Assembly: GCF_026210795.1 (NCBI RefSeq)
Contig: NC_089430.1
Span: forward strand, 1,674,001-1,738,000
Direction of reading: 5' to 3'
Source: Rhizophagus irregularis
Lineage: Eukaryota
Length of the DNA stretch: 64,000 nt
The notes beneath the pieces are model-generated. The model saw nothing but the letters and a program-made list of their open reading frames with translations, was not told the DNA's origin and did not search any database. This document shows positions 20,939 through 54,849 of the stretch, one piece after another. The translations under genes and the position numbers were made by a program. How positions within the stretch are numbered: the stretch's first letter is position 1; each line of letters starts with the position of its first letter.

Positions 20939-21584
20939 CTGTGTGATTCTGTGTGATTCTGTGTGAACTCAATTGAGGTATTCTGTGTGATCAATTGGGA
21001 ATAGGTCTGAGAAGGACCTTTAAAGATAATTCTGTGTGAACTTAGCTAAGAATAATTCTATGAGGGTACCCAAGAAAAATTATGATTAACGTTAACAAGA
21101 ATTAAAAATATTTGCTGGACAAATATATTCAAAGAAAGTTGTTAAAAATTAATAAGGATATAAATGATAAGAGATTTTGTAGCGTAGTAAAATTATATAA
21201 AATGTTAATACAGGTGTCGAGATTATTAATTAAAGATTATCAAAGCACAGTAAATTTTAGGATATAATAGAATTAGAGGCGTAGTAGAAGTATATGAAAG
21301 AGGGAGATTTGAATCTCCCACTTATTAAATGAATTGTTGACACCGTGGAAAGATACATCAGTCTTGGAAATACAACAAATAATCGGACAAATCAAATATG
21401 GATTCACACTTCAACCTTAGGTTGGAAAATTTTATGGAATATAAATTTATTTGTACAAACCTGTAAACTACCATACTCAGTAATGAACAAATGAGGTAAA
21501 GGCAAGCCCAGTATAGGTCAAATAAAATATAAAAGAAGGATAAAAAGTAAAAGATGTGAAAATTTTCAGAGAATTTTATTAAAA

Positions 21585-24500
21585 ATGGAATGGTACCATG
21601 TTTGGAATGCTGGATATATAAACCATAAACAAGAACACGACCTAGGAGTGATAGAACCAGAGGAATGTTTAGCATGTGAAATATGTAACCCAATAGAAAG
21701 AGAAGTATCAGCAGCATTCAAGAAATTTTGGGATGCTTTATTTAAATTTAAGGATACAATACTAATGTACAATAATGTGACACATAAAGAATTATTGAAT
21801 TTATTAAGTATGGACAATAGAGAAAGGGAGGATACAATACATAAAGGAAAATGTAGGAATATAGTAGATAGAATAATTGAATCAATAAGGTACAGACAAC
21901 AACCAAAAATGAAAGAAAAAGGTTTAAGGATAATAATTGTAGTAATTGTAAGGGATTGTATTGAAGGAGACTTAGAAAATGAAGTATTTGACCGATTAAT
22001 TGGATGTCCAGAAATAATGGAACATGGATACATTTTAGAAGATTGGGATGTTGAAAATAGATTTCAAAAATTTTGGGATTGGTATAACACGATATTGGAA
22101 AATGAAATGAAAGCAATACATGTTAAGAAGTTAGCAATAAAGTTATTCAGGGATTTATTATATGAAGAAACAGAAGATCTGTTGAGGAGTGAAAAGGTAG
22201 TTGAATTAATACTCCAGATAGAACATCAGAATAGATGTGAGGCAGACACTCAAGAAGGAAAGGATGCATGGAAGAGATTGATGCAGAAAGTAGGACAAAG
22301 ATTTATTGACACCAAACAATTTACAAGGGAACCTGAGGACCCAGAAAGTGATAGTCCTGAAAGTTATGAACTAGAGGACAGTGATGGTAGTATACATTAT
22401 GAAATAAAAATAGAGGACAATGTCGAATGGACAGTGGAATTATTAAAAAGAAAAATTGAAGAAATGGGTGGAAGGTTCACTGACAAAGATATACAAAGAA
22501 TGTGGGACCTAAGGATAAGGATAGAATTGATATTAACAGAGGATTTTTTAGGTACATTTTTCGAATTAATGGGACTAAGTGATGAAAAATTAAAAGATGA
22601 AATAAATGAATGGTTGACAAAAGAAACATTGAGATGTGGAAATTGTAGAAATAGAAAGTTACCTGATATGATAGCAGACATTGGACAATGTAAAATTTGT
22701 GAACAAAAAGAATTATTAGAATTAAAGGATGACTTAGAAAAACTAGGATACGAATTAAATGTGTCAGAAATAGAGAGAATAAGAAAATTCAGGATAAGCA
22801 ATAGTATAATATTAACAACGGAATTTATGGAAAAATATTTCCAGGAAATTGATACGAATGACAAAGAATTAAGGATAAAATTATATGAATGGATAAATGA
22901 AAATACCACATTTTGTAATGAATGTGGAATAAGATGGATGAACAATAAATTTGACGAAGGAAAAACCAAGTGTAGGGATTGTGAGAATGACGAAAATGAA
23001 ATTGATATCAGGGTCAAAAGATTAAAACAAATATGTGATGATAATAAAATAGAAATAACTGATGGAGAGTTATTAAGGTTAATCAGTATGGGATATACTG
23101 ATGGAGAAATATTGGATCAAGAATTTATTGAAATATTCCAAGGAAATAAAAATGATTTGGAGAAAAATTTAAAACGGATATTGGATAAATTTCTAAAACA
23201 ACAAGCTGGAATTGAGGATAGTGAAAGTAGTGGAAATGAATCTGATAATGAAAAATCTGATGGATCTGAAAAAGAATCAGATGGATCTGGAAAAGATGGA
23301 GAAATTTTAAATCCAAATGATACCGATAGCAATGAAAATTTTGAAGAACCTTATGAAGAAAACATTATAAATAGACCTGGTTTTGACTCAAGTGAAAGTT
23401 CAGAACCAAATTCTGAGGATAAAAGTGAAATATCTGATTATAATATAGAAAATTTATCTGAAACACCTTTAACACCACCGATACCACCAATCCCACCAAT
23501 AGTACCAATAATTATGGGAGCAACAAGAGCTGAAGTAAGGGAAGATTTTAGAGCGGCTTTACTAGCAGCAACGGGACATGATATAGGAGGTAATTGGGCT
23601 GGATTAGTCGCAGCCAACCCATTAGCAAATGCAATTGAGGATGCAGGAAATGTAGCTGGAGGAATAATTAGTATGCCACAATTTTATGGAAAGGAAGAAG
23701 AAGATGTTAATGATTGGGTAAGACAATTCGAAATAGCATTTACTGCTATAGGAAAAGCAGCAGGAGTAAATGGAGCTAGACAAGCAGCAATGGCAGCTAC
23801 CTGTTTGAAAGGTGCAGCAGCACAATGGTATAATGAAAAGAAGGAAGCAAACAATGGTTATTTGATAAATTGGCAAGATAACGATAATGATAATGATTTA
23901 AAACATAGGATTAAACAAAGATTTACCAGGGAAGATGTTAGAAAAAGGAAAATGTTAGAATTAAGGAAAATAACACAAGGAGTAAATGAAAATGTTGAGG
24001 CATATACGATAAGGTTTAGACAAATATTAAGGATAGCTACCAGAGGCCATGCATTAGATGATGAATTACAAGTGGATAATTATATCGAAGGATTAACACC
24101 AGAATTGGGATATCAAGTCAGAAGACAAAACCCAGCAAATTTAAATGATGCAGTGAATACAGCAAGAAGAGAGGAGGAAGCTACTAATGAATTAATAAGA
24201 AGAACACGTAATATACCAGTTAGTACCCAAAGAAAAGGAATTGATATACAGGATGACAAGCCAAAGAATATATTTGAAAAACCATTGGAGAAAAATTATG
24301 AGGATGACCTTACCGAGATGTTTAAAAAATTAGAGGTAAAATTGACAAATCAACTTAGTGGACAAAGGAGACCACCAAATAACAATAGACAAGGACAACC
24401 ATTGCGAGCATGTTATAAATGTCAACAACCAGGACATTATGCAAGGGAATGTAGAGTAAATAATGGTCAAGCAAACTATAGAAGACCAAACAACCAAAAT

Positions 24501-25169
24501 TATAATAAAGGACCAAATAATTATAATGGAAGATCAAATAATTATAACAGACAACCAAATTACCAAAATAATAATCGAGGATTTAATACGATGGAATTTG
24601 ATAACTATAATGATTACAATGACCAATACGATTACGATGGCCAAGTTTATCAAGATGATTATGACCAAGAATACAATTATGGTGACCCATATTACCAAAA
24701 CAATGATATAGTATTTAACCATGTTGATCAAGATTTTTATAATAATCCAAGACAAACAAGGAGTAATATAAAAAATAGGTCAAGTGATCGAGATATAGAT
24801 ATGGAAATTGATCGAGAACAAGCACGCAGAAGAAATGATAAATATGCCAGTCAACAGAATAAGGCAGCAGCATTACCAAAAAGGGGATTTACTAGTGAGA
24901 GTTTGAGAAAAGCTCAGGAAACAAAAAGAAATAATAATACATGTGGAAATTGTGGACAAAAAGGTCACTATGCATCAGAATGTAAAAATGAACGTGTTGA
25001 AGGTATTCATAGGACAAGCGCATTTCAAAGAAATATACCAAAATATAACGTATTAGAGGATATGAAAAGTACCAGAGCAAATGCAACTTTTTCACAAATT
25101 ATAGATATAAGCCCAGAACAAAGAAAAATATATTATGATGGTATGAGAAGATATCCACAAGTAGATTGA
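21585..25169 (+). CDS. gag: Gag polyprotein with long N-terminal extension and two CCHC zinc knuckles
   Basis: Capsid-like FYGKEEEDVNDWVRQFE...LKGAAAQWY...QGVNENVEAY..RF; knuckles CYKCQQPGHYAREC and CGNCGQKGHYASEC. Confidence 0.9.
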   Translation: MEWYHVWNAGYINHKQEHDLGVIEPEECLACEICNPIEREVSAAFKKFWDALFKFKDTILMYNNVTHKELLNLLSMDNREREDTIHKGKCRNIVDRIIESIRYRQQPKMKEKGLRIIIVVIVRDCIEGDLENEVFDRLIGCPEIMEHGYILEDWDVENRFQKFWDWYNTILENEMKAIHVKKLAIKLFRDLLYEETEDLLRSEKVVELILQIEHQNRCEADTQEGKDAWKRLMQKVGQRFIDTKQFTREPEDPESDSPESYELEDSDGSIHYEIKIEDNVEWTVELLKRKIEEMGGRFTDKDIQRMWDLRIRIELILTEDFLGTFFELMGLSDEKLKDEINEWLTKETLRCGNCRNRKLPDMIADIGQCKICEQKELLELKDDLEKLGYELNVSEIERIRKFRISNSIILTTEFMEKYFQEIDTNDKELRIKLYEWINENTTFCNECGIRWMNNKFDEGKTKCRDCENDENEIDIRVKRLKQICDDNKIEITDGELLRLISMGYTDGEILDQEFIEIFQGNKNDLEKNLKRILDKFLKQQAGIEDSESSGNESDNEKSDGSEKESDGSGKDGEILNPNDTDSNENFEEPYEENIINRPGFDSSESSEPNSEDKSEISDYNIENLSETPLTPPIPPIPPIVPIIMGATRAEVREDFRAALLAATGHDIGGNWAGLVAANPLANAIEDAGNVAGGIISMPQFYGKEEEDVNDWVRQFEIAFTAIGKAAGVNGARQAAMAATCLKGAAAQWYNEKKEANNGYLINWQDNDNDNDLKHRIKQRFTREDVRKRKMLELRKITQGVNENVEAYTIRFRQILRIATRGHALDDELQVDNYIEGLTPELGYQVRRQNPANLNDAVNTARREEEATNELIRRTRNIPVSTQRKGIDIQDDKPKNIFEKPLEKNYEDDLTEMFKKLEVKLTNQLSGQRRPPNNNRQGQPLRACYKCQQPGHYARECRVNNGQANYRRPNNQNYNKGPNNYNGRSNNYNRQPNYQNNNRGFNTMEFDNYNDYNDQYDYDGQVYQDDYDQEYNYGDPYYQNNDIVFNHVDQDFYNNPRQTRSNIKNRSSDRDIDMEIDREQARRRNDKYASQQNKAAALPKRGFTSESLRKAQETKRNNNTCGNCGQKGHYASECKNERVEGIHRTSAFQRNIPKYNVLEDMKSTRANATFSQIIDISPEQRKIYYDGMRRYPQVD

Positions 25170-25709
25170 CTACAAGAACCAATAAATAACATTGAAGCTG
25201 AACATTTGACAGCATTAAGGGGTAAACTAATAATAAATCAAGAATTGAAGGATGTAATGTTTGATACAGGGGCAGCAGTAAATGTAATAACTAGTCAAAT
25301 AATGGATGAAATGGACCTAAGAATTGAAGAGCCAAGTACAGTAAGATGTGTGATGATAAATGAGGATAAAGTAGCATCAAGAGGTACCACAACAATATAC
25401 ATACAGTTTGGGGATAAGGAGATACCCATTAAGGTCGAAGTAATTGATTCTGGAAAGAATGAAATTGTGTTAGGGAATGGAGTATTAGATATGTTTAAGG
25501 CGAATATAGATTACACAGATAAAACAATAATACTTAGAATGGATGATGAAACCATGGATGTACCAGTAAAATATATACAAAAGACCATCAAAGGATTCGA
25601 AGAGACATTGATTGAAGATGAATTATTAGATGAATTATACCAAGATGAATTATACAATATATATGAAGATGATTATGAGAATTATGAAAATGAAAATTTT
25701 AAAGTATAA
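25170..25709 (+). CDS. Retropepsin-like aspartic protease, in frame with gag after a single TGA
   Basis: Active site MFDTGAAVNVI and IVLGNG motif; no ATG start upstream of the domain (ORF-track start is TTG). Confidence 0.88.
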   Translation, partial: LQEPINNIEAEHLTALRGKLIINQELKDVMFDTGAAVNVITSQIMDEMDLRIEEPSTVRCVMINEDKVASRGTTTIYIQFGDKEIPIKVEVIDSGKNEIVLGNGVLDMFKANIDYTDKTIILRMDDETMDVPVKYIQKTIKGFEETLIEDELLDELYQDELYNIYEDDYENYENENFKV

Positions 25710-27184
25710 GTCTTGGTCAGAATGATACTGAAGAGACGATAAAGAAGCATAAAAATGACCATGAAAAATTTATTGAAAAATTTAAAGTAGGGGATATAAC
25801 CAATGAACAAAAGGGTAAATTAAAAGTATTAGTAGAAAAATATAAGGATATATTTGAGTACGATGGTGAAAAATATAACAGGACAAATCTAGTGAAACAT
25901 GAGATAAGACTAAAAGAAGGTACTGAACCGATAGCTCAAAAGAGATACAAAGAAAACGACGAAAAAGGTAAATTTATTAGAAAAGAGGTAGATGAAATGG
26001 TAAAATTAGGAAAAATTAGAGAATCCAGAAGCCCTTGGTCTTCACCAGTGACTTTAGCAGGAAAAAAGTCTGGAAATTATAGATTTTGCATCGATTATAG
26101 AAAATTAAATAAAGTTACAATAGCAGATGCATATCCATTACCAAGGATTGACGAACAATTAGAAAGGATAAGCTCAGGAAAATGGTTCACAAGCTTAGAC
26201 TTAGCATCAGGGTTCAATCAGATAGAGATGGCCGAGGAAGATATTGAGAAAACAGCATTCATATGCTCAGCAGGATTATATGAATATAATGTCATGCCAT
26301 TTGGGTTAACAAATGCGCCTGCAAGTTTTCAAAGGTTAATGGATAAAGTATTAAAGGAATACCTGAATGAATTTGTAATAGTGTACATTGATGATATAAT
26401 GATATATTCGGAAAATTTTGAAGACCACCTAAAACACATAAAGTTAGTGTTAGAAAAATTAAAGGAAGCCAGTTTAATACTAAAGTTAAAGAAATGTATA
26501 TTTGGAAAAACAGAAATAGAATTTTTAGGACATGTAGTTGGTAAAAATGGATTAAAACCAAGTCCAGGAAAAGTCGAAAAGATACAAAAATTAACAGCAC
26601 CTACAAATATAAAAGGTGTAAGGTCAATATTAGGATTATGTACGTATTATAGAAAATTTATTAAAGACTTTTCAAAAATAGTAAAACCAATAACGTCTTT
26701 ATTGAGAAAAGATGAAAAGTTTGAATGGGGTATCAAACAACATGAAGCATTAGAAATATTAAAAAGGAAATTAACCGAAGAACCAGTGTTAAGACAACCA
26801 GATTGGTTAAGGAAATTTATATTAATTACAGATGCTTCAGGAATAAGATTAGGGGCAGTATTAGCTCAAAAAGATGATAAAGGTCAAGAATACGTAATAG
26901 AATATGCCAGTAAAAGTTTAAACAGGACAGAACAAAGATGGCCAATAACTGAACAAGAATGTTATGCAATTGTATGGGGAATACAACATTTCCATAAATA
27001 CTTGATCAATAGAAAATTTGAGGTAGTGACAGATCATGCAGCTTTGAAAGGATTGATGACTGCAAAAGTACCAAAAGGAAAGAGATCAAGATGGGTCATG
27101 GAATTAGAACAGTATGATTTTGAAATAACCCATAGACCAGGAAAAGAAAATAAAAATGCGGATGCATTATCAAGAATAATATAA
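25703..27184 (+). CDS. pol: Reverse transcriptase + RNase H
   Basis: SPWSSP, RFCIDYRKLN, LDLASGF, MPFGLTNAP, YIDD, TDAS, EQECYAIVW, TDH, NADALSR; frame open from 25703. Confidence 0.95.
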   Translation, partial: SISLGQNDTEETIKKHKNDHEKFIEKFKVGDITNEQKGKLKVLVEKYKDIFEYDGEKYNRTNLVKHEIRLKEGTEPIAQKRYKENDEKGKFIRKEVDEMVKLGKIRESRSPWSSPVTLAGKKSGNYRFCIDYRKLNKVTIADAYPLPRIDEQLERISSGKWFTSLDLASGFNQIEMAEEDIEKTAFICSAGLYEYNVMPFGLTNAPASFQRLMDKVLKEYLNEFVIVYIDDIMIYSENFEDHLKHIKLVLEKLKEASLILKLKKCIFGKTEIEFLGHVVGKNGLKPSPGKVEKIQKLTAPTNIKGVRSILGLCTYYRKFIKDFSKIVKPITSLLRKDEKFEWGIKQHEALEILKRKLTEEPVLRQPDWLRKFILITDASGIRLGAVLAQKDDKGQEYVIEYASKSLNRTEQRWPITEQECYAIVWGIQHFHKYLINRKFEVVTDHAALKGLMTAKVPKGKRSRWVMELEQYDFEITHRPGKENKNADALSRII

Positions 27185-27273
27185 ATAGATAGGTAAAAGA
27201 CTTGAGACTCAAAAATATATAACAAAAGAGTTAAGCAGGATAAATAAATTGAAATTACCCGAGCAATGTAAAA

Positions 27274-29055
27274 ATGGGACCTAAAATAATAATTATATGT
27301 GGAGTTGATGGTACTGGAAAAACATTCATCGTAAATAAACTTATAAAAGAATTTGAAAAAGTAGGACAAAGTGTGAGGTTTAACACCTTTAAAAGGAGAA
27401 GAGAGGACAATGATAAGTATAAAATACCAAAGAAAGGTATAGAATGGGAATTCAGGAAGGAAGTTGTCGAACAAATCAACAGGAGAATGGAAGAACATGA
27501 TAATGAGGATTGGTTAATATTAGATAAAAGTCCTTATAGTGAGTACTTTTATCAACAGACACCATCATTTGATAGAGGATACATATCAAGATATGAGAAC
27601 CACCTATTAGAAAAGGAAATATTTAGGAACAAAAGGATAATTGATGAATCAATAGTGATATTTTTAGAAAATGAAAAATGTTGGGAAAATTACAAAGGTA
27701 GAGAATATTCGAAAAAGGATCAAGGACATAAAACATCATACCCATTGTTAAATGAAGAAAGATATATGGAGATGGTGAAATCATTTAAAGAATGTCAAGA
27801 TATTTACGAAGGAGAAAAATATGCTAATATTAAAATATCAAATAATGACACAGATTGGGAAAGAGTATATAATAAAATAATAGAATTAGATGGAGATAAA
27901 CCACCAATAGAGGTTAAAAATGTTGAGATTAAGGATAACATCAGAGTAACTGATGGTAAAAAGTATATTGAGAAAAATAGTAAAAACATCAGAGTAATAG
28001 AAGACTTTGAAAAGATGGGAGCATTATATTTGGCTCACAGTCATGAATTATCGGCACATATGGGAATCAAAAGTACTTATGATAATTTAAAAGATAAATA
28101 TTATTGGGAAAATATGCTGAATGATGTTGAAAGATATGTAAGGACATGTGATAAATGTCAGAGAAGAGGAAAACCACAAGGGAAAAATGAATTACACCCA
28201 ATTAAAGTAGTAGAACCATGGTATCAAATCGGGATTGACTTTGTCGGACCATTGAACACAACAACAAATGGTAATAAATACATCATAGTAGTGATGGATT
28301 ATTTTACAAAATGGCCAGAAGCCAAAGCAGTAAAAGAAGCAACTGCTAAAGAAGTATCAAAATTTATTTATGAAGATATCATCTGTAGACATGGATGTCC
28401 AATGAAGATATTGAGTGATAGAGGAAGTCACTTTAACAATGAAATGATTAAAGAATTAATGGAAAAATTCAGGATAAAATGGAATTTTTCTACCAGTTAC
28501 CATCCAGAAACAAATGGATTGGTTGAAAGATTCAATCGAACATTAGGTCAAGCATTAGCAAAATTATCAACTAAGGATGATTGGGATCAAAAGATAGCAC
28601 CCATATTATTCGCCTACAGAAATAAAAAGCACAGTTCAACAAAAATTCGACCATTTTATCTAACATATGGAAGAAATGTACGGACAATAATGGATGAAGA
28701 TATCAAAGGAATCAACCTAAGTGACAGAATAGTTGGATTATTAGAAGAATTACCAAAAATCTGATATGAAGCCAAAGAACAAATATTAAAATCTCAAATA
28801 AAACAAAAAGAGTATCATGACAGAAAAATAATTAAAGAACATACCTTTGGAATTGGAGATAAAATATTACTTTATGATAAAGCCAAAGCACAACAATTAT
28901 CTGGAAAATTGGAATCAAAATGGTTGGGACCATTTTACATTCATGAAATACTACCAAACGGAGCCTACAAAATTAAAGATATTAAGGGTGTAATCAAGAA
29001 AACACCTGTAAATGGAGAATTGTTAAAGACTTACCATACACCGATGAGTAAATGA
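27274..29055 (+). CDS. P-loop nucleotide-kinase-like domain fused to integrase (one in-frame TGA at 28762-28764)
   Basis: N-terminal IIIICGVDGTGKT and LILDKSPYSEYFYQ; then HHCC finger (HSHELSAH...CDKC) and DDE core (IDF, SDRG, GLVER); after the stop, QIKQKEYHD and KWLGPF. Confidence 0.9.
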
Positions 29056-30172: not shown

Positions 30173-31378
30173 ATGAAAAATTATCAAAGAATTAAAAAGC
30201 AAAATGTTCATGATTTTATCATGTTCAAGAATGGGATTAACCACAATACTATTAAAAAGAAAACTAGTGGGATATCAAACCTTTTGAATTTTATCATTTG
30301 GAATATTATGTTCTTTTCACTATTTCCACTTGCTTCAGCATCAATTGCATCATTTGTTGACATAGATTATGTATCACATACAGATTTGTATGATGCAATT
30401 CTCAACACATTTTTTCCAATTTTTTTTGTGATTTTTCTCAATGCTTCAGGTAAAGATGGGTCCATCAAAAATATAGTATTACCATTACTAGATGATGTAT
30501 TGTATAATATGATCACTTGGGTGATTCCATTTGTAGTTTCTTTTGCCTATGATGACTTGATGAGCATAAAGATATTTTCAATCATAAACATGTGTTTACA
30601 TTTAATTTGCGCATTTCTCGTAATAATTAAAGGAAAAAGAATTGGTTATTTTGCTGGTGATCACTATGATTATAATTATGAGGAAACTTTCTTTGGTTCA
30701 ATTTTTTTTTTCTTGACACTTTTTCCAGTTCTAGTTATTCCAATATTCTGGATAATTACCATCACACATAAACATATTTTTAATTCAATTTCTATAATAT
30801 TTCTTATATTATTCGGAATATGCTTAGTTTCTTTTGTGTTATTTATAATTGTTATTATAATTGAAGATATGGGTGGCATGACGCAAATGGTGGCATGGAG
30901 AATATATTATGTATTATCTATTATATGTTTTTATTTTCCAAATATTCTTCAAACATTATTGATTACATTATTTTGGCCAATCAATTTTTACTTTGTTAAA
31001 GCATGCGTGTTTATACTGATTCTATCATTAACAAGAAATGTGTCCTATTTTGTTGATAAGATTCCTGGTAACTTTCTGGCTACTTCAACAACAATGACTC
31101 AATTTTTTATTAAGGCTTTTACAACAAAAAACATAAAAGAAAATATTAAGGGAGCACAAATATCAATAGAAGAAATGCAGGAAAAAATTTTAAAAATTGA
31201 TGGGATGCAAACGAAAATTGACAAAATTGATGAGATACAGGCAACAATGCAGACAACAACACATACAATTGATGATATGCAAAAAACAATGCAGACGAAA
31301 ATGGATGAAATACAGAAGATAATGGATGAAATAAAAACATCAGTGGAGGAGACAAAAAAAAATTCAACCAAAGGATGA
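30173..31378 (+). CDS. Multi-pass membrane protein with C-terminal coiled coil, unknown function
   Basis: 401-aa ORF with roughly 8-9 hydrophobic segments and a heptad-like tail (MQTKIDKIDEIQ...MQTKMDEIQ); TATAAA ~60 bp upstream. Confidence 0.8.
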   Translation: MKNYQRIKKQNVHDFIMFKNGINHNTIKKKTSGISNLLNFIIWNIMFFSLFPLASASIASFVDIDYVSHTDLYDAILNTFFPIFFVIFLNASGKDGSIKNIVLPLLDDVLYNMITWVIPFVVSFAYDDLMSIKIFSIINMCLHLICAFLVIIKGKRIGYFAGDHYDYNYEETFFGSIFFFLTLFPVLVIPIFWIITITHKHIFNSISIIFLILFGICLVSFVLFIIVIIIEDMGGMTQMVAWRIYYVLSIICFYFPNILQTLLITLFWPINFYFVKACVFILILSLTRNVSYFVDKIPGNFLATSTTMTQFFIKAFTTKNIKENIKGAQISIEEMQEKILKIDGMQTKIDKIDEIQATMQTTTHTIDDMQKTMQTKMDEIQKIMDEIKTSVEETKKNSTKG

Positions 31379-36980: not shown

Positions 36981-37406
36981 ATGATCTCAAGAAAATTGCT
37001 CCTTTTGGCCACGGTCGCCTTGTTTTGTATGATCTTTATTGGATCAACTCAAACAGCTCCATTGAATAAACGAGAAGCCACCGCTATCGCTGACTTTAAT
37101 AATGGGATTTCAGGTGAAAGCACCTTCATAGATGTTGGTTCTTATCGTTTAACTGGATCATTTACTAGAGGTTTCGAAAAAGATACGAATATTCAAAATT
37201 ATGAATTTTTTGTAATAACCAAGGATAGAAAGAAGATTGATTATACTAAAGACTTTATAAAAAGTGTCAAAATTTTTCCAGCTGGTGGTACTTCACCTTT
37301 TCAAAAAGTTTATGAAGGTTTTCACATTTGTGATCTTGTTGGCGGTACCTTTTTTGTTAATCATAAAGGAAAGAAATTTTCTGAAGCTTTAATTAAATAT
37401 GCTTAA
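36981..37406 (+). CDS. Small secreted protein (candidate effector)
   Basis: Signal peptide MISRKLLLLATVALFCMIFIGSTQTA, then PLNKR Kex2-like site; 141 aa; TATA-like box ~110 bp upstream. Confidence 0.85.
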   Translation: MISRKLLLLATVALFCMIFIGSTQTAPLNKREATAIADFNNGISGESTFIDVGSYRLTGSFTRGFEKDTNIQNYEFFVITKDRKKIDYTKDFIKSVKIFPAGGTSPFQKVYEGFHICDLVGGTFFVNHKGKKFSEALIKYA

Positions 37407-46372: not shown

Positions 46373-47351
46373 TATTTGTTAATTATTATTATTATTATAT
46401 AACATCCCATATTATACTAATAAATTATATAACAATTATTTACATTCCGAATATCACTGTGATATCTTATGTTGCACCAACAAATATTTACCTTATGATT
46501 TTCTATGTGTAATACCTTTCAGATAATTAAATCTCATATTCAAATCAAAACTTCTATGATCAACATCATAAAATTTAGTACTACGATATAATCTCATAAA
46601 AATAAAGAAATGGATACTACGCAAAATATACGTTTTTTTAAAATAATTTATAATACCAGATATACTGTACTATATATATATATTACTAGTATATATATTA
46701 TTATATATATAAGTGAATTGTAGCACTTACCAGAGGTAAAATTCACCAGAGGGAAATTCACCTCAGGTAAAATTCACCTTTACCATATTATATATTTATA
46801 TTTATTTCAGTATAAAAAAAACTAAATTTTTTACAATTTTAGTGCATATTATATATAAAATAAATGAATAAAAACTTGCCTAAAAATTAGTTTTTATACA
46901 TTATATAAATAAGGTAAAATTTATAATTTAACTCTTTATAAAATCAAAAATCATCATTTGGATAACAAAAAGTTATCCCATGCTTTTGTCTATTTTCATT
47001 CCTTCTAGATGCAATAATTTCATATTGACCAAAGGTTAGTCCGAAATCAATCCTTCTATTATCAAGATGTACGTCTAATAATGATTACAAAAAAGTTAAT
47101 TATAATTTATATATTTAGGTTATACAATTAACTCTGGCCAAATTATAATTCCGGCCGAAATTAAGAAATTAAAGTAATTTTACTGTGCAATAACTAAAGG
47201 AAAATAAATTAATTTACATAAAAATAATAAAAAATAAATTAATTAATTTAAAAAAATAAAGGCTAAAAAAAATTGAATTACTGCGCCACAATAAAGATTC
47301 GATTTTTTAATTCGATTTTTGATTAATCGATTTTGCTAGAATCGATTCCAT

Positions 47352-47713
47352 TCTCTACCTTCGCTTACGCTGACTTTTCTAATGGGGATGCAGGTCAATG
47401 GACCTGGACAACTGGTTATTTTAATTTGATAAAAGGTCCAGTACTGATTCTTATCATTTTCGTGGATTATTTACTAGAGGTTTCGAAAAAGATACGAATA
47501 TCCAAAATTATGAATTTTTTGTAATAACCAAGGATGGGAAAAAGATTGATTATACTAAAGACATTTGAAAATGTCAAAATTTTCTCAGCTGGTGGTACTT
47601 CACCTTTTCAAAAAGATTATAAAGGTCTTAAAGTTATAGAACTTGCTGGCAGTACCTTTTTTGTTAAGCATAAAGGAAAGAAATTTTCCGAAGCTTCAAT
47701 TAAATGTGTTTAA
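47352..47713 (+). pseudogene. 5'-truncated paralog of the 36981-37406 secreted protein
   Basis: High similarity from tttactagaggtttcgaaaaagatacgaat to the stop; the 3' flank stays similar to ~48045; no signal peptide; frame broken. Confidence 0.85.
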
Positions 47714-51132: not shown

Positions 51133-51925
51133 TCTATCTATCTATATTTATAAAAAAATCCCTGTGCGCCCATAACGTTTAGACTACCCCGCATAAAAAG
51201 GTGGATTTAATTCCTCTTCTCATCAACATAACCCCAAAATTGATGTCCATTTTCACAGATCATGATAAATATTTGTTAAATATACCAAAATTGACATTAA
51301 TAACCTGCCAGATATGAAGATATGAAACAAAAAAAAAAATATTAATTTAAATTGGATCGTCCAGCATCATGCGCCTGCGCCCTGTGCTACAGATTCTTAT
51401 ATAGGATTCAGAGTGGCGCATCATTTGCCATTTATTTGCTTAATTGGGCAGCCCTAATCCTAATACAATTTTGAATTAGGCTGCATAAATGATTGGCGTA
51501 GGACAGATTTAAGCAACTAAACCAATAAAAAATTTGTTAAGCTATAAAAATAATTTAATCGGGACAATGAAATTCTTCACATGAGAAATCATCATTGTCT
51601 TTTTAGAAATAGTCATTGTTTTTTTTAAAAAAAAAAATTTCAGTTTTTTGAATTTTCCCATATGACAAATTTTCTTTTTTTTTAAAAAAAAAATATTTTT
51701 CAGTTTTTTTTGGATTTTCCCACATGACGAAAAAAATCCACCTTTTCTTTTAAAAAAAATTTTACATTTAAATTTTTAATTTCTTCATCACGAATTTGCC
51801 GATCATTTATTGACATTGTTACCTAAGAAAAGGTGACTATTTTATATAAATTCTACAGATCAACATTTACCGTTAAATTGTCCAGATAGGTACGATTATA
51901 TAGAAAACATGTAGCGTACGGTGAG

Positions 51926-52061
51926 CTATGTATGTACGTATAGTGGTCAATGTATGGCAATGTCCGGTATACATCACTCTACAGTATACACCACCCCACC
52001 CTACAGTATGGTAAAAATGACCATACATACCGTACGTTGATCACTATACAGACATACATAG
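51926..52061. mobile_element. Small palindromic MITE-like element
   Basis: ~32-bp imperfect inverted arms ctatgtatgtacgtatagtggtcaatgtatgg / ccgtacgttgatcactatacagacatacatag. Confidence 0.55.
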
Positions 52062-52742
52062 GCTTCTATACATGACATGTTTCCGTCGTACCCGATAGGT
52101 ACCTACAAAATAAAAAAAAGGCGGATCCCTGTTGCTGAAAAGCGACGTGAGACGATATTTCCTTTTTGGAAATTAATGTAACCAAAAATTTTCCTTTAGG
52201 AATACTATTCATTTTTGTTTGTGTAACATAACTGATGAGCGGGAGAAAAGCTACACAATTACACAATTCAAAGGAGTCTTAACGTGACACCACATGATTG
52301 CAATGATTTCAAATAATAGATAAAGATAATACAACAATATATAAAAAAAAAATATATATAATGATATAGTATTTTAGGACAATACTCATACTGAATTTTA
52401 AAAAAATATTGTTAACACACAAATATGGTGAAAATATTGTCTGTATGAAATTCTTTTGTATGTTGTGATGTTTCAGCTCCTAAAAAAGTGTAACTAAAAA
52501 TTTGACGTATTGTAGATCAATTACAATTGTTTTTTCAAACACGGAGACATGCGTAAATGCACACAATATTAAACATTTTTCAATCCAAAAGTATGAAAAA
52601 GTATAAATTAGCAAAAAATTTTCTTTAGAAGACAAAAAATTAAAATTCAATCAAAAAAAGAAAAAGAAAAATACTTTGATAGTTTTTTTCGCATAATTCA
52701 AACTCATTAAAATCAATTAAATTCTTTAAATTTCCTAACAAA

Positions 52743-52844
52743 ATGAATCAGACTGAAGTTACCATTAAACTATCCATTCCATCTATCGCAACTGCTGAAG
52801 CCACTGAAAAACCGGGTGAATCTGGTGGCTGTACAATTATGTAA
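52743..52844 (+). CDS. 33-aa CaaX-terminated peptide, candidate lipopeptide pheromone precursor
   Basis: MNQTEVTIKLSIPSIATAEATEKPGESGGCTIM*; A-rich start context (caaaATG); GC-richer island; TATAAA at ~52602; below the ORF-track length cutoff. Confidence 0.6.
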   Translation: MNQTEVTIKLSIPSIATAEATEKPGESGGCTIM

Positions 52845-53075
52845 TAAAATAAAATTCTTTACATTTACGAATTTTATCGTCAGATCTGATTGGAAATTAA
52901 ACATTTATGTATTGTTAAATAATCATTTGTCTATAGTTTATCTATTTATTTGTAATAATACATTGTACATTTGTACTTTATATATATATATTTCGTTAGT
53001 TTACTTGTGTTATTATATTATCAAATTACTTAATATTCGAATCACTATTACATATTTTGTCTTGTATTCTGTATT

Positions 53076-53255
53076 TAGGGACATGTTTTAAAACGATTTC
53101 GGTGTTTTAAAACATGTGTTAAAAAATGTTTTAAAACACTTCGATATTATAAGCTTAATGCTTTAAATCTTAAATTTAGGTTAAAAAATCAATTTATATA
53201 TAATAAAACGAAAACTGTTTTAGAACATGTTGTTTTAAATTACGTGCCATACCTA
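53076..53255. mobile_element. hAT-type MITE (180 bp)
   Basis: TAGG...CCTA termini; perfect 8-bp TSD TCTGTATT (53068-53075, 53256-53263); repeated GTTTTAAAAC subterminal motifs. Confidence 0.8.
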
Positions 53256-54849
53256 TCTGTATTTTATCATTTGTGTATTCTAAAAATTACAAAAATAAAA
53301 TCACATCTTTAAATTCATTATTTAAAATGTTCTAAATTCTAATAATTTTGGCAAGTTTGAGGTTGCCTTAAAAGTTGTCTAAACCATAACTAATTTTCTA
53401 ATAGTGTACACAGAAAATTTTCTATGCTGATCACGTAATAAGAAAAAAAATCTTTTTGATGCAAATACACAATATTTATTAGGACCAGTTGATCATCTTT
53501 ATAAGTAACGATAAATTAACATTTTTGTTAGAAGATATCATTTCTGTAAAAGATTTATCCGTAATTTCTATATTACGGAAAAATAACTAAAAATCTATAC
53601 ATTTTGAGGCTATAAATTCCGTGAATATAATACATTTACGGGAATAACAGAATAAAAAACACGGAATAAATTTATTATAGGGAATCCTATATTATTATTA
53701 AGATAAACACAAGGTTAATGATAATTAAAAACTCGATAAAATATATATTATGGCGGAACCAACTATGGGAACTCTTCCCGCCGATCATTCGGACCAAAAA
53801 TTTCAGGACGAAAAAAGGTGGAAGAGTTCAAAAGTGCTTATGGAAATTAATTGTTTTACGCATTTCAACATCACCAACTGTTTATTCAGTCCTTTCTGAA
53901 CATTTTGATATGAAGTTTAGAAGAAGTTTGCTAGAAGGTTACAGATTTTTTCGACCAAAAAATTTATTTCTCGTTGTCAACTTAATGGTAGTGACCCAAA
54001 AATGCCAAGGAAGGGCTAGGTGTTGCTCCACATAAAAGTTTATCAGTGGGCAATAATAGAGGCTTGGAAAAATAAAAAGTTGGCCTTTGGAAGCTTCTTG
54101 GATAGCTTGGAAATAGTGGTTTCTTGGGAATTTTTCGTCACAGAATTTTTTGTCAGCGCAGCAAAAATTTAGCACGCGGATGAAATCTAAAAGTAGAAAC
54201 GGAAGATTCAGTGAGGAACCAATTGGATGGTCAGGAAATGAGGTGATTTACTGCGGGACAAATTGCGGCAACAAATTATCTGAGGGGATCGCCATATCCG
54301 CAGTAATCACATGAGAGAAGAGATGAGGATTCTAGTTTTGACTTGGGCGGTAGCAATGTAAATAAATGTAGGTTGTTAGGAAGATTTTTTAGTTTGGTTT
54401 AGAATTAGGGTAGTTTTTGTTGTTTCATTTTACTTTTGAGAAGTGTGAAATGCGTAAGGAAGGATTTTTGTGATTAATAAAGTATCTATATGTGGGAGTT
54501 CGAGGGAGTTTAGCATTGGCGCAAACGCTTGGTTAAAAAAAAAATTTGTTAAAACCAGGAGTATAAATAGCTAGTGTTAAATTTCGTGTTTTCTTTTTTA
54601 TTGTTGGGTTTAGTTTTAGTTTTTCTTCTTGTATGTTTTTTTTTTGATTTGTTTTTGATTGTAGTAGATAGATACTTTATTAGCAGATGCATGTCGTCTA
54701 GAACATGATGCGCTGTTTCAGCGATCATCATGTTATTAATAAAGTTTTTTTTTAAAAAAAAAAAAATATATATATATATTATTGTAAGTGATCATCTAAA
54801 CTCGATATTGTATGAAATTTTAATCGACCGATTTATATTCATTTTTTTT

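What the first reader, a model, noticed from the sequence alone, without database searches (positions are those of the whole stretch)
52743..52844. Tiny CaaX peptide gene resembling a fungal lipopeptide mating-pheromone precursor
Seen: a 33-codon ORF MNQTEVTIKLSIPSIATAEATEKPGESGGCTIM with TATA box and A-rich start context, in otherwise non-coding AT-rich DNA, missed by the ORF track. Known: a-factor-type and basidiomycete pheromone precursors are ~30-60 aa, lack signal peptides, and have S/T/A-rich pro-regions. They carry a short G/S-rich mature peptide, often starting at a charged dipeptide, and end in a farnesylation CaaX box. EKPGESGGC-TIM fits that pattern. Inference: a candidate prenylated signalling peptide, notable if the host is an arbuscular mycorrhizal fungus, where sex has not been observed.
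Basis: partly seen in the sequence, partly recalled or inferred. Interest (0 to 1): 0.75.

Follow-up and report, generated by a model that had tools for sequence, protein, structure and literature searches.

The report
Candidate lipopeptide pheromone family, mycorrhizal fungus
A tiny 33-codon gene of the root-symbiotic fungus Rhizophagus irregularis turns up in RNA libraries and belongs to a family of copies that keep a lipid-attachment signal while changing the few residues before it, so it likely encodes the kind of lipid-tagged peptide signal that other fungi use for mate recognition and that earlier work sought in these supposedly sexless fungi without finding.

Summary
The ORF is real: 33 codons ending CTIM-stop, 40% GC in about 20% GC flanks. 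A lone CaaX ORF is unremarkable (26 of 100 shuffled windows have one), but outside data support a gene. The host is Rhizophagus irregularis. Contigs from 4 RNA runs (3 studies) carry the ORF unspliced and without substitutions, so the longer spliced database models look wrong. It belongs to a family of 33-38-codon copies with a conserved 22-codon N-terminus, a hypervariable 7-12-residue stretch with in-frame indels, and a kept CTIM/CTVM/CTLM end, plus two broken copies. All three motifs are predicted to be prenylated and cleaved. A 2013 study found Ste3 and Ste6 orthologues in these fungi but no pheromone gene. Best reading: a-factor-class lipopeptide precursors for hypha-to-hypha recognition (0.58; mating specifically about 0.35-0.4). 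Against: no Ste3 in the window, no yeast-type Asn site, a polar putative mature part, and a conservation pattern opposite to yeasts, which also fits an intracellular membrane-anchored micropeptide with a free linker (0.28). Translation, prenylation, export and receptor activation are untested. No relative was identified outside Rhizophagus.

The parts
52602..52608 (+). TATA-like heptamer, 141 nt before the ATG (weak; common in AT-rich DNA)
   Evidence: sequence
52674..52742 (+). 5' untranslated region (minimum extent; contigs cannot show the start). The in-frame upstream stretch is closed by a stop at 52680-52682 and carries 1-nt indels in other copies
   Evidence: (X15 record 2 begins at 52674; 1-nt deletions at 52683, 52706, 52731)
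52743..52844 (+). 33-codon ORF with stop, candidate lipopeptide precursor
52743..52808 (+). Conserved N-terminal segment, codons 1-22 (putative pro-region; alternatively a binding motif)
   Evidence: pN 0.047, pS 0.10 in three diverged copies
52806..52832 (+). Putative mature peptide E22-C30 (9 residues; 13-14 in other members); the cleavage point is inferred
   Evidence: charged-doublet rule
52809..52829 (+). Hypervariable segment, codons 23-29, with frame-keeping insertions in other copies
   Evidence: pN 0.37
52830..52844 (+). CaaX box CTIM plus stop; CTVM and CTLM in other members
52845..53209 (+). 3' untranslated region (longest RNA contig); varies by substitutions and indels between runs
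52743..53309 (+). Stretch (gene plus about 470 nt downstream) present near-identically on two different contigs of one public R. irregularis assembly, i.e. a recently duplicated cassette

Best explanation
This is a small multi-copy gene of Rhizophagus irregularis, present unspliced in RNA libraries, whose 33-residue product ends in a CaaX box predicted to be prenylated and trimmed, and which likely serves as the precursor of an exported a-factor-class lipopeptide used in hypha-to-hypha recognition (mating or pre-fusion self/non-self signalling). Shown: the ORF, its unspliced presence in RNA contigs, the family, and the kept CaaX end. Predicted: prenylation (probably farnesyl) of Cys30, removal of TIM and carboxymethylation. 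Inferred: removal of the conserved N-terminal ~21 residues near the E-x-P junction to free a 9-14-residue peptide; export by the Ste6-type ABC transporter; binding to the Ste3-type receptor and MAPK signalling. The copies differ mainly in this released part, which would give several signal specificities.
For: (1) 4 of 4 RNA runs laid (3 studies; 4 of the 6 RNA holders) have a contig over the ORF with no substitution in it and no splice joint; nearby flanks are largely uncovered. (2) Family members with a readable end: 4 end in CaaX (X7 record 18 CTIM-stop after a +6-nt in-frame insertion; X3 record 15 loose end in frame, TKTS-CTVM-stop; P0028 CTLM; P0030 CTIM), 4 are partly readable and consistent, 2 are broken. 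(3) In the two diverged copies that cover it, the CaaX box has 0 nonsynonymous and 2 synonymous changes, against pN 0.37 just upstream (Fisher p 0.0003) and 10 changes in 28 nt just downstream. (4) CTIM, CTVM and CTLM are all scored prenylated and cleaved by the yeast-trained models (PMC9231725 supplements); CTLM supports a-factor bioactivity in yeast (PMC5014548). (5) Short, cytosolic-looking, multi-copy, long 3' UTR, charged doublet 12-16 residues from the C-terminus: features listed for a-factor-class precursors. (6) One Ste3 and a Ste6 orthologue are reported in Rhizophagus with no ligand found (PMC3834313).
Against: No translation, prenylation, export or receptor data exist here. In yeasts the mature peptide is the conserved part and the N-terminus varies; here it is the reverse. 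The variable stretch changes at about the 3' UTR rate (18/63 vs 10/28, p 0.62), as a neutral linker would, and aligner-placed indels inflate its counts. Putative mature parts are polar: 1 aromatic residue in 5 stored members. There is no conserved Asn cleavage site. EK is not kept in the two RNA/DNA contigs of the TKTS type that show the junction. No Ste3 or homeodomain Pfam match among 114 window ORFs of 62 aa or more. Only one Ste3 is reported for several peptide types. A co-inoculation study saw no pheromone gene upregulated, although it could only test annotated genes. RNA contigs differ from the window in the 3' UTR, so they may come from other alleles or near-identical copies; contigs show neither strand nor level. 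CTIM is also yeast Rho4's motif, described as geranylgeranylated or cross-prenylated.
Confidence: 0.58

Rival explanations
1. An intracellular, membrane-anchored micropeptide. The conserved 22-residue N-terminus is the working part (a short binding motif; its alternating V/I/L pattern could form a beta strand), the variable G/P/K/S stretch is a free linker like the hypervariable region before the CaaX box of Ras-family proteins (family knowledge, recalled), and the prenyl group only tethers it.
For: The N-terminus is strongly conserved (pN 0.047) while the stretch before the CaaX drifts at the UTR rate and tolerates indels. It lacks the aromatic residues seen in the predicted mature pheromones read. 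CTIM is the motif of yeast Rho4 and CTLM that of the G-gamma subunit Ste18, both intracellular proteins.
Against: No known family matches (Pfam; Atlas; representatives). Copy-number turnover with broken copies and several tail types resembles pheromone families. The variable part's pN (0.37) exceeds the pro-region's pS (0.10; p 0.003), which allows diversifying selection, though gene conversion or misalignment would give the same.
Confidence: 0.28
2. An exported lipopeptide aimed at something other than the fungus's own Ste3, e.g. the plant host or other microbes.
For: The RNA holders are metatranscriptomes or plant metagenome libraries, and variable tails would suit outside targets. Same export anatomy as the best explanation.
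Against: No direct evidence. The fungus has an orphan a-factor-type receptor that needs a ligand.
Confidence: 0.08
3. Not a functional 33-aa gene: either the first exon of a longer spliced gene as in database models P0027, P0029 and P0031, or a duplicated non-coding repeat with an accidental ORF.
For: Three public gene models splice at or before the stop and run on. A near-identical cassette is duplicated. Two copies are broken. Contigs drop rare splice forms.
Against: 4 of 4 RNA contigs cross the modelled donor sites unspliced and no joint is listed; the modelled downstream exons carry frame-breaking indels between runs. Diverged copies keep frame and CaaX while both UTRs drift.
Confidence: 0.06

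Closest known systems
Basidiomycete lipopeptide pheromone precursors (Agaricomycete P/R-locus Pp/phb genes, e.g. Rhizopogon and Flammulina; Phaffia MFA1/MFA2)
   Same: Short CaaX-ended ORFs missed by annotation; charged doublet about 10-15 residues before the C-terminus; several copies giving different mature peptides.
   Different: 33-38 aa rather than 40-100; no Ste3 gene within the window; doublet is EK and not invariant; putative mature parts nearly lack aromatic residues; N-terminus highly conserved between copies; host is a Glomeromycotina fungus; no sequence similarity detected.
Saccharomycotina a-factor precursors (S. cerevisiae MFA1/MFA2 class)
   Same: Under 100 aa, single exon, multi-copy with turnover, CaaX predicted to be farnesylated and cleaved; Ste6 and Ste3 orthologues reported in the host.
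   Different: No Asn cleavage site 5-20 residues before the Cys; the conservation pattern is inverted (mature part variable, N-terminus conserved).
h-type precursor HPP1 of Trichoderma reesei
   Same: Tiny ORF, long 3' UTR, Met-ended CaaX of the C(S/T)VM kind.
   Different: HPP1 has three CaaX-like repeats and Kex2 sites; this gene has one terminal box.

Membership tests
a-factor-class lipopeptide pheromone precursors (general) | Short ORF (within 100 residues) that is expressed | tested here: met
   33 aa; contigs in 4 of 4 RNA runs laid. Strand, level and which copy is read are not shown.
a-factor-class lipopeptide pheromone precursors (general) | C-terminal CaaX that can be prenylated and cleaved | tested here: met
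   CTIM/CTVM/CTLM scored positive in published yeast-trained models; kept in diverged copies. Prediction only; prenyl type open.
a-factor-class lipopeptide pheromone precursors (general) | No signal peptide | tested here: inconclusive
   Highest 8-residue hydropathy 1.34, no long hydrophobic run; no signal-peptide predictor was available.
a-factor-class lipopeptide pheromone precursors (general) | N-terminal processing, export by Ste6 and activation of Ste3 | not testable with these tools
   Orthologues reported in the host; no functional data.
a-factor-class lipopeptide pheromone precursors (general) | Mating-type-specific alleles or expression | not testable with these tools
   No genome was held and run names are coded.
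Saccharomycotina a-factor | Asn cleavage site 5-20 residues before the prenylated Cys | tested here: not met
   The only Asn of P0001 is residue 2; rule.
Saccharomycotina a-factor | Mature peptide is the most conserved part among copies | tested here: not met
   pN 0.37 in codons 23-29 vs 0.047 in codons 1-22; rule.
Agaricomycete P/R-locus pheromone precursors | Charged doublet 10-15 residues before the C-terminus | tested here: inconclusive
   EK at -12 in P0001-P0004 and -16 in P0028 and P0030; only the Glu is kept in X16 record 5 and X10 record 2.
Agaricomycete P/R-locus pheromone precursors | Precursor of 40-100 aa | tested here: not met
   33-38 aa; rule.
Agaricomycete P/R-locus pheromone precursors | Linked to Ste3 receptor genes | tested here: not met
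   No Ste3 or homeodomain match among 114 ORFs of 62 aa or more in the window. Short exons, and anything beyond 11 kb downstream, were not seen.
Agaricomycete P/R-locus pheromone precursors | Several copies with different mature peptides | tested here: met
   At least six tail types; paralogue versus allele is only partly resolved.

The most novel reading that the evidence does not exclude
This family is the missing peptide-pheromone system of arbuscular mycorrhizal fungi and the first a-factor-class family outside the Dikarya: dispersed genes with a shared pro-region release a set of divergent lipopeptides that act as a mate- or fusion-recognition code through Ste3.
Probability: 0.38. Interest if true: 0.92.

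Novelty: new variant of a known kind. Interest (0 to 1): 0.76.

Why it matters
Arbuscular mycorrhizal fungi partner most land plants, and sex has not been observed in them. A receptor (Ste3) and an exporter (Ste6) for a farnesylated pheromone were reported in 2013, but the ligand gene was not found (PMC3834313), and a 2019 survey called the pheromones of most early-diverging fungi largely unknown (PMC6339444). These peptides are short enough to synthesise and test on the receptor in yeast and on germinating spores, so the question becomes directly testable. A positive result would extend lipopeptide pheromones beyond the Dikarya and could give a handle on crossing or fusion between inoculant strains. 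A negative result would still leave an undescribed family of prenylated micropeptides that current annotations mis-splice.

Tried and rejected
No whole genome was held, so copy number, map positions and distance to Ste3 or the MAT locus could not be computed. Metagenome scan with the family alignment: 369 pattern matches, 0 related. Pfam: no family for the peptide or its relatives. ESM Atlas: no usable hit for P0001; only leads under 0.9 for the P0030 segment. HMMER over 1.84 billion representatives: 5 hits, 3 of them named R. irregularis records and 2 unnamed; no remote homologue. AlphaFold of the peptide alone gave no secondary structure, pTM 0.16, uninformative. I tested whether the 401-aa multi-membrane protein at 30173-31378 is a receptor: no Pfam match, no PDB match below E 0.2, model pLDDT 37.7, so no fold search was run. 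Contig depths (e.g. 708 vs about 58 in X3) were not used as copy number or expression because the run kind is only guessed. One PRE-like heptamer at 52469 (motif recalled) is chance-level. My early note that N-terminal changes are mostly synonymous was wrong: 6 of 12 sites are (p 0.06-0.11). Earlier scan notes on CaaX candidates concerned other fungi and did not bear on this locus.

Full report
1. Observation. The ORF at 52743-52844 (+) is as described: 33 codons ending CTIM-stop, A-rich start, TATAAAT at 52602-52608, 40% GC against 21% and 18.5% in the flanks. It is 1 of 389 ATG ORFs of 20-70 aa and the only one with a strict CaaX. Shuffles give 0.30 such ORFs per window (26 of 100 have one; 4 of 100 with an A-rich start), so the motif alone proves little. 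No second copy lies in the window.

2. Host. Three window proteins are exact database entries whose named cluster members are Rhizophagus irregularis, with one R. diaphanus and one generically named JGI record. No whole genome was held.

3. Transcription and gene structure. 20 of 24 listed runs hold the stretch, 6 of them RNA runs from 3 studies. I laid 4 of those 6. Each has a contig over the ORF (52674-53209, 52707-52968, 52726-53014, 52752-52940) with no substitution inside the ORF, no splice joint, and indels or substitutions only in the UTRs; in three of the four runs most of the flanks have no cover. Limits: the runs were found with this gene, contigs show neither strand nor level, one contig starts 9 nt inside the ORF, and the 3' UTR differences mean the RNA may come from other alleles or near-identical copies. 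The frame upstream of the ATG is closed by a stop at 52680-52682 and carries 1-nt indels in other copies, so it is not the last exon of a longer gene. Public models P0027, P0029 and P0031 begin with this N-terminus and run on past the CaaX. P0027 and P0029 map onto the window's downstream non-coding DNA in pieces; for P0031 a splice at the same AT|GT is my inference. All four RNA contigs cross those donor sites unspliced, so I read the models as mis-annotation; rare spliced forms cannot be excluded.

4. The family. The exact peptide is in a 4-member cluster whose variants all end CTIM. Laying 4 further runs (kind guessed as DNA or unknown) showed several diverged copies; 18 of 22 pieces were displayed, and 9 indel rows and 3 loose ends were not. 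Protein searches added P0027-P0032. Tally of non-identical members by their 3' end. Four end in CaaX: X7 record 18 (+6 nt in frame, CTIM-stop, all 11 gaps accounted for), X3 record 15 (loose end in frame, TKTS-CTVM-stop; frame, translated by hand), P0028 (CTLM) and P0030 (last 37 residues, CTIM; same type as X7 record 17). Four are partly readable and consistent: P0031 (CTL, then the model continues), X10 record 3 (CaaX codons kept with a synonymous change, frame not verifiable), and X16 record 5 and X10 record 2 (in-frame TKTS, display cut at the Cys). Two are broken: a copy with an internal deletion after codon 6 (X3 record 11, X2 record 7) and P0032 (N-terminus, then unrelated sequence, no CaaX; source unnamed). 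Six could not be read (P0029, X17 record 6, X3 records 12-14, X10 record 4). P0027 and P0029 lie on different contigs of one named assembly and both match about 470 nt of downstream DNA, and P0028 and P0030 lie on different contigs of another, so at least some members are paralogues; which others are alleles is open.

5. Pattern of change. In the three contigs that span the ORF, codons 1-22 have pN 0.047 and pS 0.10, codons 23-29 have pN 0.37, and the CaaX box plus stop has 0 nonsynonymous and 2 synonymous changes in the two contigs that cover it away from their ends (p 0.0003 against the variable part); the first 14 nt of 3' UTR have 10 changes in 28. A tail drifting at the variable part's rate would keep C-T-[IVL]-M-stop 3% of the time per copy, at the N-terminal rate 52% (copies are related, so these do not multiply cleanly). 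Caveats: contigs that align through the CaaX are favoured by the 80% likeness cut, although the X3 loose end is free of that bias; indel placement inflates counts in the variable part; some differences near contig ends are not listed. Only 6 of 12 N-terminal sites are synonymous (p 0.06-0.11). The variable part's rate equals the 3' UTR's (p 0.62) but exceeds the N-terminal pS (p 0.003), so neutrality, diversifying selection and gene conversion are not separated.

6. Processing. CTIM, CTVM and CTLM score as prenylated and cleaved in the yeast-trained models (FlexPepBind dissents for CTIM and CTLM) (PMC9231725, supplement rows). CTLM is fully farnesylated and supports a-factor bioactivity in yeast (PMC5014548, passages). 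CTIM is yeast Rho4's motif and is listed among geranylgeranylated or cross-prenylated ones (PMC11304957, passages), so the lipid type is open. Cutting before the E-K-P junction gives 9, 13, 13 and 14 residues in stored members, polar, with 1 aromatic residue in 5.

7. Mechanism and rivals. Best reading (0.58): a-factor-class precursors whose released lipopeptides are exported by Ste6 and read by Ste3 in hypha-to-hypha recognition. I put mating specifically at about 0.35-0.4, the rest being fusion or self/non-self signalling. Halary et al. report one Ste3 and a Ste6 orthologue in Rhizophagus and no peptide pheromone gene, and note their method also missed those of Ustilago (PMC3834313, passages, section 12, supplement search). 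The main rival (0.28) is an intracellular prenyl-anchored micropeptide with a conserved binding motif and a free linker, which explains the inverted conservation pattern and the polar tail equally well. Smaller rivals: an exported signal for other organisms (0.08), or no functional short gene (0.06).

8. Comparison with known families. It works like an a-factor-class precursor but fails membership tests for the named subfamilies. Yeast type: no Asn site and the mature part is not the conserved one (bioRxiv 10.1101/2021.09.28.462209, passages). Agaricomycete type: shorter than 40 aa, doublet not invariant, and no Ste3 or homeodomain match among 114 window ORFs of 62 aa or more (rules from PMC5473757, PMC5100862 and PMC5103461, passages; PMC3248468 passages, for general processing). 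It shares with them multiple copies with different tails and, with HPP1 and others, a long 3' UTR (PMC3068285, passages). No Pfam family matches.

9. Novelty. Six searches aimed at a reported peptide pheromone or CaaX precursor in arbuscular mycorrhizal or Mucoromycota fungi listed no paper whose title, abstract start or read passages describe one; searches added none. Passages of PMC7490403, PMC6339444, PMC7411241 and bioRxiv 10.1101/546531 name none either; the other listed papers I saw only as listings. The library lacks most subscription journals, and bioRxiv supplements were not seen, so a prior report is possible. No relative was identified outside Rhizophagus, which may reflect fast change and the absence of tiny ORFs from annotations. 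Rating: new variant of a known kind.

10. Verdict. Observation confirmed; interpretation partly supported and strengthened by the family, but untested in function. Interest 0.76 because it supplies concrete, synthesisable candidates for a ligand that was sought and not found.

Noticed in passing
window 21495-29055 (+): Ty3/gypsy-type retroelement (gag, protease, RT/RNase H, integrase) whose integrase-bearing ORF 27253-28764 begins with a roughly 200-aa P-loop domain with weak nucleotide-kinase/thymidylate-kinase-like Pfam hits below cut-off.
   Followed up: no
window 30173-31378 (+): 401-aa protein with about 7-8 hydrophobic segments and a coiled-coil tail, conserved across R. irregularis records; no Pfam or PDB match, model uninformative.
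   Followed up: partly
window 36981-37406 and about 47327-47713 (+): Small 141-aa protein with a hydrophobic N-terminus, and a broken second copy 10 kb away.
   Followed up: no
window 51905-52082: 53-nt imperfect inverted repeat (74%) about 660 nt upstream of the gene, possibly a small transposon remnant.
   Followed up: no
window about 53774-54000: Stretch matched by many diverged contigs in one RNA run, i.e. a repeat element downstream of the gene.
   Followed up: no
public records P0027, P0028, P0029, P0030, P0031: Five R. irregularis 'hypothetical proteins' appear to be mis-annotations that contain members of this family by splicing past the stop or fusing to upstream ORFs.
   Followed up: partly
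L073, L084 (match positions for L073): Unrelated short metagenome ORFs of 31 and 38 aa with an A-rich start and CTIM/CTVM ends, the second Cys-rich; may be chance.
   Followed up: no
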